NCBI GenBank assembly: GCA_964016885.1
Contig: OZ024764.1
Coordinates: forward strand, 2,356,001 to 2,420,000
Reading direction: 5' to 3'
Source of the DNA: Eledone cirrhosa
Lineage: Eukaryota
Length of the DNA stretch: 64,000 nucleotides
Shown: positions 6,573-57,982 of the stretch, one piece after another
Position numbering within the stretch: position 1 is the stretch's first letter
How the letters are laid out: each line of letters starts with the position of its first letter
Program-made: the position numbers and the translations under genes
Notes under the pieces: generated by a model
Told to the model about the DNA's origin: nothing
Seen by the model: the letters and a program-made list of their open reading frames with translations, nothing else
Database searches by the model: none

Positions 6573-6638
6573 TATTTTATCTGATGAAAGTGCACCATAA
6601 TTTGCCTTGGTTGCCCTTGAAATATGTATAATAAAATA
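6573..6638 (+). ncRNA. Type I hammerhead ribozyme motif, family A
   Basis: TATTTTAT-CTGATGA-stem II-GAAA-tatgta-TA-ATAAAATA; perfect 8-bp stem I; AUA triplet. Confidence 0.78.
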
Positions 6639-8381
6639 AATATGGTTTTATAAATATAATTTCCATTTATTAATATATTGTGTATTTACTCCACTACCTG
6701 TTGAGTGCTTTATATCAGTTATAAAAATGTTTAAGCTTGTTGAATCCCAACAAATTGAATATAACCTTTGTATATATATATATATATATATATATATACA
6801 TGTATACACGTGTGTGTAAATAAGACACACGCATATATATATATATATATATATATATATCATCATCGTCATTTTACGTCCGCTTCTCCCTGCTTGCAAG
6901 GGTGGGACGGGTCCTATTCAGCACAGCATCTCTCCACTTGTCACGGTCCTTCGTCATCTCCTCCGTGAGCTTCAGCGATCTCAGATCAGCTCTCACCACT
7001 GCCGCCCATATTTTTTGTGGCCTTCCTCGACTGACTACATCTTCCTTCCACTTAGATTTCTTGCTATTTCTTCACCCAGCGGTCTACCTCCATGTGCATC
7101 ACATGTCCATCCCATCACAGTCTTCTCTCCTGCACACTACAAATTATCCCTCTTATACATCAACATCATCATCATCATCATTTTACGTCCGCTTTTCCCT
7201 GCTTGCAAGGGTGGGAATGGAACTGATTGTGGCTTGATTTCTACAGCTGGATGCCCTTCCTAACACCAACCTCATTTACAGTGAGTGCTGGGTGCTTTTT
7301 TGTCGTGGCACCTCCACGTCTACTTTACAGTGGAATGATAGGGACTGGATAGTAAACTGGAGCAATGTGAAATAAAGTGTCTTGCTCAAGGAAACAACAC
7401 ATCACCCGGTCTGATAATTGAACTCACAACCTTTCGATTGCAAGGCCAATGTTCTAACCACTAAGCCATGTCCCTCCACACACATATATATATATATATA
7501 TATGAAAAGAGTCAGGACCCCGACGGCTGAGCTCCGGCCGTTTCGACAGATCCGAACCCGATTGTGTGTTTACCCAGAGTGGGTATTATTCAGGTAAGGA
7601 GCTGGAGCTTGGTAGTAATGTCGTGATTTGAGTGCTCCACAACAGAAATAGGAGCTAAAGAAGTTCAGATCTAGCTGTCGAAACAGCTAGAGCTCAGAAG
7701 TCAGGGTCCTGACTCTTTTCCTATTACCCACTCTACTACCCTAAGTATTGAGTACTCTGGTGCGTCATGGTCCACCTGGTTCATTACCACACCCACTTTG
7801 TTATATATCATCATCATCATCATCATCTTCGTTTAACGTCCATTTTCCACGCTAGCATGGGTTAGACGGGAGTTTTTCCACTTGAGGCAAGGCTGGTCGG
7901 ATGACCGTGTCTCGCTTGTACAGGACTGTATCTGGCAGGTTTTCTACAGCTGGATGCCCTTCCTAACACCAACCTCATTTACAGTGTGGAACTGGGAACT
8001 TTTACTGTGTTACCTACACGGCCACATTACAGCGTGGACTGTGTGTATATATGTATGTATGTATGTATGTGTGTGTGTAAATAAGATAGATATGTATATA
8101 TATAATAATTGTCTCTACTTTTGGCACAAGGCCAGCAATTACCCAGTACATTACTGGTACTTTATTTTGTCAACCTCGTAAGGATGAAAGGCAAAGTTAA
8201 CCTTGGCGGGATTTGAACTCAGACCGTAAAGAGACGTAACTATGCTGGAAAGCATGGCGTCCAACCCTCTACCGATACTGCCAATCCACCGCCATATATA
8301 ATAATAATAATTTGTTTTTGAATTTGTTTTGTGAGATTTCTTATCTGAAAACAATAGAGGGACACACAAAATAAAAACCTA

Positions 8382-8424
8382 GTCACTGAGGAGGTCACAG
8401 AATGTGTGATGAAAGAGCTTTGAC
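8382..8424 (+). ncRNA. Minimal hammerhead motif, family C
   Basis: GTCA-CTGAGGA-g-GTCACA-gaatg-TGTGAT-GAAA-gagc-TT-TGAC. Confidence 0.7.
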
Positions 8425-8615
8425 AATATATAAACAACCTTCCGGTTAACAAACCAACCAGCCAACAACCATAAACTCATAATAAATTGAAGTGAAAACC
8501 AACAGGCGTGTGTGTTTTTATTGGCAACATGACCCTCCCAAAGTATGTCAACATGAATGGACCTATTATTTTTATCTAAAGACATTTTTTCCAATTCCAC
8601 CCCACCCATCCCCTT

Positions 8616-9132
8616 CCTGGTTTGTTACATGGTCACTCCATTTAATCCCCAGGATCTTTCGCAGACATCTGGAATCGAATGCGTCCAACTTCTTCTCTTG
8701 GCTGGTCTAAAGGTGCCATGTTTCACTTCCGTACAAGAGTATGGATAGCACGTTGCTGTTGTAGAATCTCATCTTTGTTTTCAGGGTGAACTTCCTGCTC
8801 TTCCAGATCTTGTCAAGCTGGTTAAATGCTGCTGAAACCTTTCTCAACCAGCAGCTAGTCTCTTCTGCCATCTGCAAGCGACGCCTGGGCTGGTTTGGGC
8901 ACGCTTTGAGACTTCCCCCGGAGAGACTGGCGAACCAAGTACTTAAATGGAGCCCGCAGGGAAGCAGACGGAGAGGGCGACCCAAAATGAACTGGTGCCA
9001 GTCAGTTGAGAGGGACCTGCGAGCGACAAACAGACAATGGCGGGGCGCTGTGCAGCTGGCTGCTGACCGAACGCGATGGAACACTATGATTGCCTCATGC
9101 GTCGCAAGACGCGGGAGCTTCTGAGTCTGAGT
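8616..9132 (+). mobile_element. 5'-inverted RTE-type LINE fragment with a 9-bp TSD
   Basis: About 8616-8845 reads on minus (IWKSRKFTLKTKMRFYNSNVLSILLYGSETW); about 8845-9124 reads on plus (RRLGWFGHALR...RRRGRPKMNW); (CTGAGT)2 tail; CATCCCCTT at 8607-8615 and 9133-9141. Confidence 0.85.
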
Positions 9133-55860: not shown

Positions 55861-56049
55861 ATTGGAGTGTAATGTTTAGCTACAGATGGTTCACCAGTTT
55901 GAACACGCAATACTAATATGTAGGTCCAACTAGCAATGTGGTAGTTTATGCTTTTAAAGAATGTCTTTCATGTGGTTTTATGTGGTACATGACATTAAGA
56001 ATTAATGAAGAAGGAGGAACAACAAGCAGAATAAGAATATGTTACCCAC

Positions 56050-57087
56050 CTTGTGAATTGTCACTCGATAGACGTTTGTGTCATCAACAAACCAAATGAT
56101 TTGGTTGGAGAAAAGCTCACCATAGTTTTGGGAACTGAGGTAGGGCTCAGTAGGCTCAGAAGAGTAGAGCTGCAAGCCCTTACGTATGCGCTCCCTCAAC
56201 ACATAAAGGGCAGGGTTGGCCTTCATGATCTTGGCCATCGCCTGCTGGATGAGGGGCTTGCATCCGGGGAACCAGTTTCCGTAGGCACTGTGTAAGTTGT
56301 AGGCGAGATCTATAGCGATGAGAACGCCGGTGGGGCTCGGGTAGATGCTCATGTTGTCGGTGGTGTAGTCGAGGAACTTGGCACGGGCGTACCTCTCGAT
56401 GTCGTGGGAGTCGTAGTCTCCCCACCGGAGCTGGACGTCGATCCAGTACTTCTGGGTGTTGGCGTTGTCCATCACGTCCTTGGAATCGGCCAGCAGCGAG
56501 GGGCGCGACACGTTCCACTTGTAGGTGGCAAACAGGAGGATGTCGGCGCAGGAGCTGTTCATCTTGTAGGACTTCCGTGGATGGATGGTCTCCTTTTGGA
56601 CGGTCTCGATCTCGAGGGCGTCCAGCTCCTGGTCGAAAACCTGGCACAGATCCATCACAACGCTCTCGTGGATCTTCTGCCATAAATGGGCACGGAAGAT
56701 CTGGATGAGTGAGATTTTCAGCGTCGGGATTTTACCGTGCATGAAGATGCCAGTCAGGTCAAGCTGCACCTGGAAACCAACGTAGACATTGGCTCTGTTG
56801 ATGGTTGGTGACCACCAGAGGGTGAAGCGCCGGTTTGGGATCTGGTTCAAACCAGATCTCTGGGCGTTGGTCAGTTTCTTGTATTTCATGGATTCCTCGA
56901 AGCCGCTGGCTTTCTCCCAGAAGAGACCCTCCCAGGTGGGGAAGTAGGTCCCTTTGAATAGGGTGTGTTCCAGAATGCCCTCAACGCCTCCCAGCGCCTG
57001 AATCATGTCTGTTCTGTAGTTGTTTAAGTTCCACAGTTTACCATCGTGCCGCTGGTGGGTCCACCAGAAAGGATTCTGTTTCAGCAC
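56050..57087 (-). CDS. PRPF8: Prp8 large exon, 346 codons (linker, endonuclease-like domain and start of the RNase H-like domain)
   Basis: [19 protein letters not shown]...[12 protein letters not shown]...[17 protein letters not shown] at 57089-57088 and GT at 56049-56048. Confidence 0.99.
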
Positions 57088-57921
57088 CTGTAAAAGCAAC
57101 AACAAACACCATCAGGTATATAACAACAACAACAACAACTAGAACTAGAACTACCGTAACAAGCAGCTATCTATCTATCTAATATATGTCAGACGCCATG
57201 CTTTGCAGCATAGAGTTACGGCCCTTTACGATCTGAGTTCAAATCCTGCCAAGGTTAACTTTGCCTTTCATCCTTACGGGGTCGATAAAATAAAGTACCA
57301 GTCACGCACTGGGGTCGATTTAATTGACTTTCCCCTCCCCCCAACAAGCAGCTATCTATCTATCTAATATATGTCAGACGCCATGCTTTGCAGCATAGAG
57401 TTACGGCCCTTTACGATCTGAGTTCAAATCCCGCCAAGGTTAACTTTGCCTTTCATCCTTACGGGGTCTATAAAATAAAGTACCAGTCACGCACTGGGGT
57501 CGATTTAATTGACTTTCCCCTCCCCCCCAAAATTGCTGGCCTTGTGCCTATAAAAAAAAACAATATATACTGTTCTTGTGTTTTTGTACGACGCGCAAAG
57601 GGATGTAACTCGTCTATGTTTCGGTATCTAAATATAAATACGTACATATACATTATACAAAATACTTGCTAAATGTATAGTTGTTTTCTCAACTTGTCTG
57701 AATTTATATTATATTTATTTCTAGCAGTTCAATTAACCATGTAAAGGATTCTTCATAGTTCATGAATGTCCAGCTATATAATATATATATATATATAGTA
57801 ATAATAATAAATTTGAAGACTAAAATCCAAAGCGATTCTTTGCTTAAACATTAATCTGTTATTTTAATAAATATATATATATATATATATGGGTATGTCT
57901 CTATTTATAAAACAAACTTTG

Positions 57922-57982
57922 TATTTTATCTGAAGAAAGCGTACCAAAGTGTTTTGGTATCTTTGAAATATATATAATAAAA
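57922..57982 (+). ncRNA. Type I hammerhead motif, family A variant, antisense to PRPF8
   Basis: TATTTTAT-CTGAAGA-aag-c-GTACCAAA-gtgt-TTTGGTAT-c-ttt-GAAA-tatata-TA-ATAAAA. Confidence 0.75.

What the first reader, a model, noticed from the sequence alone, without database searches (positions are those of the whole stretch)
6573..57982. Family A hammerhead: swapped stem II sequence with a conserved C-pyrimidine mismatch
Copies at 6573/30400, 15510, 49135 and 57922 share stem I (TATTTTAT/ATRAAA) but differ in the distal stem II, which still pairs: GCACCA/TGGTGT (24078), ATGCCATATT/AATATGGTAT, GCAAATGTCA/TGATATTTGT, GTACCAAA/TTTGGTAT. Each has a 3-bp closing helix (AAG/CTT, AGG/CCT, AAA/TTT) and then a C:C or C:U mismatch (U:C at 6573). 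Stem III is near-palindromic (ATATGTAT, ATATATAT, ATGCGTAT) with an AUA triplet. Keeping the structure while the sequence changes implies selection on the RNA fold. The fixed mismatch could be an undescribed tertiary contact (inference).
Basis: partly seen in the sequence, partly recalled or inferred. Interest (0 to 1): 0.75.

Follow-up and report, generated by a model that had tools for sequence, protein, structure and literature searches.

The report
Retrotransposon hammerheads with fixed cytosine mismatch
These are hammerhead (self-cutting-type) RNA motifs at the ends of a known kind of jumping gene, present in about 60,000 copies in this animal genome; every subfamily examined keeps one unpaired cytosine that relatives from other hosts lack, which likely keeps the ribozyme weak until a partner copy and the element's own protein help it fold (cutting untested).

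Summary
The window holds 9 type I hammerheads (7 plus, 2 minus), all 3' fragments of Hydra-clade Penelope-like retrotransposons. The genome has 58,603 exact-pattern matches, control 0. In 14 subfamily representatives, six stem II pairs covary, while position 10.4:11.4 is unpaired in 14 of 14 and C10.4 is the only invariant stem II base. The partner is C, U or A, never G, so 'C-pyrimidine' should read 'C opposite non-G'. It persists between RTs only 52-61% identical, yet 0 of 44 Hydra-clade hammerheads from other hosts have it: a lineage trait, not a catalytic need. Inserted copies decay at C10.4 (4.6%) faster than at catalytic C3 (2.3%), so selection acts on transposing lineages, not on these loci. 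The palindromic stem III, dimer model and A17 site are known. No conserved RNA partner for the C was found. The mismatch costs about 4-7 kcal/mol, so a protein- or dimer-gated weak point is favoured over a tertiary contact; untested. This scan noted the same mismatch before elsewhere in this genome (e1-8670794).

The parts
6573..6638 (+). Type I hammerhead, subfamily F1a; U:C at 10.4:11.4 (6591:6615), predicted cleavage after A at 6630; right arm of an inverted pair
6214..6279 (-). Hammerhead F1a, U:C mismatch, damaged distal stem II; left arm of the inverted pair (about 6164-6768)
6639..6768 (+). 3' end of the element plus about 90-nt optional 'tail', ending at a (TA)n run 138 nt after the cleavage site
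   Evidence: PLE tail described in PMC8557442 and PMC11167929 (passages)
13072..13137 (+). Hammerhead F1a, C:C (13090:13114), damaged distal stem II; element ends at (TA)n 48 nt after the site
15510..15575 (+). Hammerhead F6, C:C (15528:15552), 10-bp distal stem II; the best-folding copy in the window
   Evidence: subfamily linked to long RT-EN open frames
23927..23991 (-). Hammerhead F1b, U:C; left arm of an inverted pair (about 23877-24275)
24078..24142 (+). Hammerhead F1b, C:C (24096:24119), core C3 changed to A (predicted inactive)
30400..30465 (+). Hammerhead F1a, C:C (30418:30442)
49135..49202 (+). Hammerhead F2a, C:U (49153:49179), palindrome AUGCGUAU; antisense in a PRPF8 intron
57922..57984 (+). 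Hammerhead F3, C:C (57940:57961), palindrome AUAUAUAU; antisense to PRPF8, 5' of the exon within 56002-57111

Best explanation
These are type I hammerhead motifs in the 3' ends (pseudo-LTRs) of one lineage of Hydra-clade Penelope-like retrotransposons, and the fixed C10.4 mismatch is likely a selected weak point that keeps the ribozyme poorly folded until a second hammerhead and the element's own RT-endonuclease protein stabilise it. Shown: the carrier, the covarying fold, the lineage-wide mismatch, its absence in sampled relatives, and decay of inserted copies. Inferred from published PLE work: two hammerheads in a pLTR-ORF-pLTR transcript pair through the 8-nt palindrome and cut after AUA to release a unit-length RNA. 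Inferred here: the mismatch leaves only three mostly A-U/G-U pairs next to the core, so folding is conditional, and the constant C is what the protein likely reads. The window copies are 5'-truncated fragments under no sign of selection. Odds by step: identity 0.97, selection on the mismatch 0.85, gated-weak-point mechanism 0.45.
For: Carrier: tandem hammerheads flank one ORF in L093 and L096; ORFs carry RW, DKT, YRDD, CxCx5C, CxxC and CxH motifs matching the Hydra clade; ends abut (TA)n at 43-57 or about 133-152 nt after the site; inverted pairs. Mismatch: unpaired in 14 of 14 representatives with C invariant while six neighbouring pairs covary; 193 of 206 copies not selected on this site have C and 3 of 206 are paired; 90 of the first 100 listed older-family matches have C (counted by eye); 0 of 49 C-holding flank columns are invariant. 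Lineage is monophyletic, support 1.0, RT core 52-61% identical between its main branches; 0 of 44 distinct stem II from other hosts mismatch there. Weak point: putting G at 11.4 in silico gains 3.8-6.7 kcal/mol and lifts the 10.2 and 10.3 pairs from 0.01-1.0 to >= 0.95; median pairing 0.49 versus 0.91 in other-host motifs, stem III duplex -2.3 versus -8.1 kcal/mol. Protein: an anole Poseidon hammerhead cut only with its protein present (PMC11167929, passages); PLE hammerheads are weak in vitro (PMC4209133).
Against: No cleavage, probing or binding data; no raw RNA reads were offered. The stem II pairing difference from other hosts shrinks at 15 C (0.73 versus 0.97, p = 0.053), and weaker helices may reflect an AT-rich genome. 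The ribozyme is already dimer-locked, so a further brake may be unnecessary. Paired position 10.7 is almost as constant (2 changes), and only 2 changes at 11.4 are seen, too few to prove that the C identity rather than any mismatch is selected. F2b, F2c, F5, F7, O4 and O5 rest on 1-4 copies (F5 is a three-way tie at 10.4). O1-O4 were not linked to an ORF. The protein-assistance result is from another PLE clade, and there cleavage was not needed for insertion in vitro. U:C and C-G variants occur in both arms of some inverted pairs, as do C3 mutants.
Confidence: 0.5

Rival explanations
1. Plain brake without protein recognition: any weak mismatch at this level lowers cutting, limiting damage when two same-strand copies in one host transcript form a mixed dimer.
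For: Destabilisation of 3.8-6.7 kcal/mol. The window's plus-strand palindromes cross-pair in 14 of 15 pairings and share stem I. About 60,000 copies.
Against: C10.4 is constant in 15 of 15 subfamily majorities although it is CpG in several and decays fastest in copies; U:C or A:C should serve as well.
Confidence: 0.2
2. RNA tertiary contact: C10.4 docks on stem I or on the partner hammerhead, replacing the loop 2-stem I contact that long-stem-II PLE motifs lack.
For: Fixed register and identity. The site lies at about the level where loop 2 of canonical hammerheads begins (recalled; the review PMC4008931 was not held).
Against: No invariant or covarying partner in distal stem I; no conserved G partner outside the core in a scan from -100 to +150 nt; 44 of 44 relatives with paired 10.4. 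A backbone or minor-groove contact would escape these tests.
Confidence: 0.2
3. Frozen accident: an ancestral C10.4-G11.4 pair lost its G once and the mismatch is merely tolerated.
For: C-G is the commonest pair at 10.4 in relatives (15 of 44), so one change explains the origin; a single site; related lineages are not independent.
Against: Flanks between the main groups barely align (mean 4.0 changes per column, 3 of 69 invariant). Neighbouring pairs changed 2-6 times. One transversion on either side would restore pairing and appears in copies (225 C-G matches) but in no subfamily majority.
Confidence: 0.1

Closest known systems
Hydra-clade Penelope-like elements and their hammerheads (Craig et al. 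2021, PMC8557442; includes Hydra-1_Obim)
   Same: Single RT-EN ORF with RW, DKT, CxCx5C, CxxC and CxH motifs; (TA)n targets; inverted and tandem ends; type I hammerhead near the 3' end, no extra base after A9 in most, often A at the cleavage site.
   Different: A separate long branch. None of the 26 Hydra rows in their file S2 shows an internal mismatch at the 4th stem II position (read by eye; their descriptor may favour unbroken helices). Their stem III is mostly 4 bp around 1-3 nt; here an 8-nt palindrome. The hammerhead of Hydra-1_Obim is unlike these. The tail here is about 90 nt rather than 30-40.
Minimal PLE hammerheads (Cervera and de la Pena 2014, PMC4209133; Luense et al. 2017, not held)
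   Same: Type I topology, long covarying helix II in consensus families, palindromic helix III implying dimers, thousands of truncated copies, opposite-strand pairs.
   Different: Their consensus has an extra base between 9 and 10.1 and G10.1-C11.1; here 10.1:11.1 is mostly A-U or G-U with no extra base, and helix II carries a fixed C mismatch. They note a bulge in Drosophila virilis helix II and list single mismatches in some rows, not a fixed C at 10.4 (parts read).
Poseidon PAc hammerhead of Anolis (Frangieh et al. 2024, PMC11167929)
   Same: PLE hammerhead just upstream of two element end points that define a tail.
   Different: Other PLE clade; shown to be protein-assisted in vitro. No stem II mismatch is mentioned in the passages read.

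Membership tests
Type I hammerhead ribozyme | Core C3-U4-G5-A6-N7-G8-A9 and G12-A13-A14-A15.1, U16.1, H17 | tested here: met
   8 of 9 window copies intact, 24078 has C3A. These bases were required by my genome patterns, so their conservation there is not independent.
Type I hammerhead ribozyme | Three helices round the core, open end in stem I | tested here: met
   Stem I 4 of 5 pairs and stem II 6 of 7 pairs with two-sided changes; stem III is 2 bp as a monomer.
Type I hammerhead ribozyme | Match to an Rfam hammerhead model | tested here: not met
   No hit.
Type I hammerhead ribozyme | Self-cleavage 3' of H17 | not testable with these tools
   No raw RNA reads offered; contigs cannot show ends.
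Dimer-type PLE hammerhead | Self-complementary stem III/loop 3 | tested here: met
   Both L1:L4 and L2:L3 complementary in 189 of 206 copies, with AUGU, AUAU, GCGC and ACGU variants. Dimer model scores 8.6-15.9 kcal/mol below two monomers but is not the predicted minimum-energy fold.
Dimer-type PLE hammerhead | Extra base between A9 and 10.1, and G10.1-C11.1 | tested here: not met
   No extra base; A-U 8, G-U 4, G-C 2, U:U 1 of 15 majorities. Hydra-clade motifs from other hosts also lack the extra base.
Hydra-clade Penelope-like element | Single ORF, RT then C-terminal endonuclease, with RWK-like, DKT, CxCx5C, CxxC and CxH motifs | tested here: met
   L090, L096, L304, L306 against PMC8557442 section 11 and alignment passages (by eye). 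RRLRW is followed by T, I or R, not K. Pfam gave no RT or GIY-YIG hit for these ORFs; 15 of 19 homologues carry PF26215.
Hydra-clade Penelope-like element | pLTR tandems, inverted 5'-truncated copies, (TA)n targets, hammerhead at the 3' end | tested here: met
Hydra-clade Penelope-like element | ORF linkage of each hammerhead subfamily | tested here: inconclusive
   Linked for F2a, F2b/F2c, F3, F6, F5 (endonuclease), F1 (L317, partial), F4 (L097, ORF follows the repeat); weak for O5; none found for O1-O4. No ORF remnant in the window.
Hydra-clade Penelope-like element | Placement within Hydra on a tree with other PLE clades | not tested
   The tree has only Hydra-like sequences and a midpoint root.

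The most novel reading that the evidence does not exclude
C10.4 is a specific docking base through which the element's own RT-endonuclease switches its hammerhead on: a natural, lineage-specific protein-gated ribozyme, with 14 or more covarying natural variants and intact ORFs for testing how PLE proteins assist cleavage.
Probability: 0.3. Interest if true: 0.7.

Novelty: new variant of a known kind. Interest (0 to 1): 0.42.

Why it matters
Why PLE hammerheads are weak and how they are activated is open: they cut poorly in vitro, and one needed its protein. A single unpaired C kept while every neighbouring pair turned over, in a lineage with long open ORFs and about 60,000 copies, is a ready-made handle: one substitution separates brake, tertiary contact and protein recognition. 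It also shows that descriptors and Rfam models requiring an unbroken stem II miss a very large hammerhead family. The element, topology and dimer design are known, which limits surprise.

Tried and rejected
Extra-base register for stem II: breaks the helix in F2, F3 and F4 (by eye rows). Apparent fully paired families (AAUG..., GCUG...): an artefact of a pattern that excluded C; the unbiased list shows C majorities. One search gave 2 changes at 10.4 because my sample was enriched for non-C copies; after dropping 118 such copies all 15 majorities are C. A long-range or pseudoknot partner for C10.4: none beyond core G5, G8, G12, with 2-4 possible pairs. DNA- or antisense-level function: G-U 10 versus A-C 0 argues for the sense RNA. 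Both-arm sharing of variants as proof of tolerance: also seen for C3 mutants, so uninformative. Cleavage evidence from reads: only contigs and DNA raw reads were offered. Contigs of four other coded organisms cover the F2a motif with no listed variant at C10.4, but these are near-identical sequences and add little. First metagenome scan found nothing. ORFs upstream of O1-O4: none in 16 fetched regions. Look-up of earlier notes by sequence found nothing. Papers not held: Luense 2017, Scott 2013.
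Full report
Observation. The six cited places hold the motif as described, and three more copies lie at 13072+, 6279- and 23991-. Numbering from the core, 10.1-10.3 pair with 11.1-11.3, 10.4:11.4 is a mismatch in 9 of 9 (C:C 5, C:U 1, U:C 3), and a distal helix follows. The three U:C copies are all in the subfamilies where the C precedes G. The 24078 copy has C3 changed to A; four F1a copies have damaged distal stems. 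Rfam finds no hammerhead. The window is G000:C25:2356001-2420000 of a 3.0-Gb animal genome. Its upper part holds exons of PRPF8 on the minus strand, ending near window 40659, so the 49135 and 57922 copies are antisense to that gene and the others lie 3' of it. That the host is octopus-like is my inference from recalled genome features, not a test.

Carrier. The pattern TTTTATCTGANGA-N15-45-GAAATNNNNATAAT has 58,603 matches (reversed control 0); a stem I variant pattern adds 1,113. Loci around matches show hammerheads 0.7-1.7 kb behind the stop of one long ORF, and on both sides of it in L093 and L096. The ORFs carry RW, DKT, YRDD, CxCx5C, CxxC and CxH, the marks of the Hydra clade of Penelope-like elements (PMC8557442 section 11; supplement alignment passages, compared by eye). 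Pfam did not recognise them; 19 homologues at 32-40% identity were found, one of them named, as hypothetical. Elements end at (TA)n either 43-57 or about 133-152 nt after the cleavage site, the two-ended 'tail' known for PLEs, and often stand as inverted pairs. Window copies are short 3' fragments with no ORF remnant.

The fold is selected. In one representative for each of 14 subfamilies, 6 of 7 stem II positions and 4 of 5 stem I pairs show two-sided changes; 44 cells change on both sides against 14.2 +/- 3.7 in shuffles, and slid registers score 0.11-0.15 against 0.657 (the shuffles ignore relatedness, and the structure came from these sequences). The basal helix ranges over AAG/CUU, AGG/CCU, GGA/UCU, GCU/AGU, AAU/AUU and GGU/ACC. 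Subfamily majorities hold 10 G-U and 0 A-C, pointing to the sense RNA. The inner bases of the stem III palindrome are mutually complementary in 189 of 206 copies, which a monomer hairpin does not explain. This dimer design is published (PMC4209133, main text parts 1-2 of 4; review PMC6765202, passages). The modelled dimer is more stable than two monomers but is not the minimum-energy fold.

The mismatch. Column 10.4 is unpaired in 14 of 14 representatives and C is the only invariant stem II base. Among 206 copies (118 dropped because my searches had selected them on this site) the states are C:C 140, C:U 46, U:C 7, C:A 5, U:U 3, A:C 2, C-G 2, G-C 1; the 15 subfamily majorities are C:C 12, C:U 2, C:A 1, with six groups resting on 1-4 copies and F5 tied. 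In older families 90 of the first 100 listed matches have C (by eye). Genome-wide, 2,694 of 58,603 lack C10.4 (4.6%), 1,025 have a purine at 11.4 (including the C:A subfamily), and 225 have C-G (pattern one base shorter). For comparison 1,374 copies have lost catalytic C3 (2.3% of 59,977). So inserted copies decay freely, and constancy belongs to the transposing lineages. Those lineages are old: RT cores are 52-61% identical between main branches, flanks average 4.0 changes per column, and none of 49 C-holding flank columns is invariant (flank alignment poor). Against over-reading: paired 10.7 changed only twice, 11.4 changed twice, and O1-O4 could not be tied to an ORF.

Relatives lack it. 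Of 78 Hydra-like loci from metagenome contigs (best 80 of 492 kept, query built from non-G000 proteins), 60 gave a hammerhead with 44 distinct stem II. All 44 pair at 10.4:11.4 (C-G 15, G-C 11, U-A 6, A-U 6, U-G 5, G-U 1) under a filter that allowed a mismatch, and 41 of 44 have A17. The G000 RTs form one long branch, support 1.0. None of 26 Hydra rows in file S2 of PMC8557442 shows it (by eye), nor does the PLE alignment in the supplement of PMC4209133 show a fixed C there (text parts 1-2 of 3, figures not seen). The simplest history is loss of G from an ancestral C-G pair, then retention (inference).

Mechanism. Catalysis in this clade does not need the mismatch. No invariant base in distal stem I and no conserved G outside the core could partner the C, which weakens the tertiary-contact idea without excluding a backbone contact. 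The mismatch costs 3.8-6.7 kcal/mol and leaves the basal pairs half formed; the lineage also has a weaker stem III than relatives (-2.3 versus -8.1 kcal/mol), though the stem II gap narrows at 15 C. I ran these two tests after reading the 'brake' suggestion in note e1-8670794, which reports the same mismatch 10.8 Mb away in this genome; it is an unchecked note, not independent support. A generic brake does not explain why the base stays C despite CpG decay. The anole Poseidon hammerhead cut only with its protein (PMC11167929, passages). I therefore favour a gated weak point read by the element's protein (0.45-0.5) over a plain brake (0.2), an RNA contact (0.2) or accident (0.1). No step of this mechanism was tested.

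Novelty. Element, topology, palindrome and A17 site are known. Searches for the mismatch in print gave nothing relevant: 3 papers, listing only; 0; 3, listing only, none titled on hammerhead stem II; 0; 0; led to the papers cited. Luense et al. 2017, the most likely place for such a variant, was not held, so absence from print is not established. Verdict: new variant of a known kind, interest 0.42.

Noticed in passing
window 8386, 12342, 14367, 9757 (+) and 9581 (-): A second hammerhead-like family: CTGANGA, an extra base, G-closed 6-bp stem II, GAAA, very short stem III; 9581/9757 form an inverted pair.
   Followed up: no
window 9169 and 33897 (+): Classic minimal PLE hammerhead: extra A, GGAC/GTCC stem II, GAAA CG TT; the 33897 copy has lost G12.
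   Followed up: no
window 15217 (+); 63915 (+) and 63537 (-): Further type I hammerhead-like motifs with longer stem III (CCA-C-TGG type); the last two are an inverted pair.
   Followed up: no
G000:C25:2214117-2221133 (L235-L236), related copy at window 49551 (-): Head-to-tail array of 16 identical hammerheads at 468-bp spacing (one step 464), palindromic stem III ACTAGT; looks like a tandem retrozyme- or PLE-type array able to dimerise in cis.
   Followed up: no
window 40659-57111 (-): Exons of PRPF8 (U6-binding, domain IV and PROCT matches) spread among repeat-filled introns.
   Followed up: partly
window 5851-5908, 12668-12725, 53890-53947 and about 300-bp copies at 11774, 20954, 48451, 58036, 63547: Abundant tRNA-derived SINE-like repeat; 11792-12183 and 12603-12994 form a 392-nt inverted pair at 90%.
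   Followed up: no
window 1-4308: 53-bp tandem array, about 81 copies, 95% matches; 51-bp arrays at 43870-44687 and 46419-48054.
   Followed up: no
window 27835-28413 (+) and 59013-59537 (+): Open frames resembling DNA-transposase fragments (IS1595/Merlin-like and Tc1/mariner-like by recalled motifs; not searched).
   Followed up: no
window 6639-6768; subfamilies F1, F2, F3, F4, F6: The optional PLE 'tail' is about 90 nt here, against 30-40 nt in the papers read.
   Followed up: partly
subfamily F3, e.g. L297-L302: A sub-lineage has U:U at 10.1:11.1, a state common in Hydra-clade motifs of other hosts (15 of 44), while keeping C:C at 10.4.
   Followed up: partly
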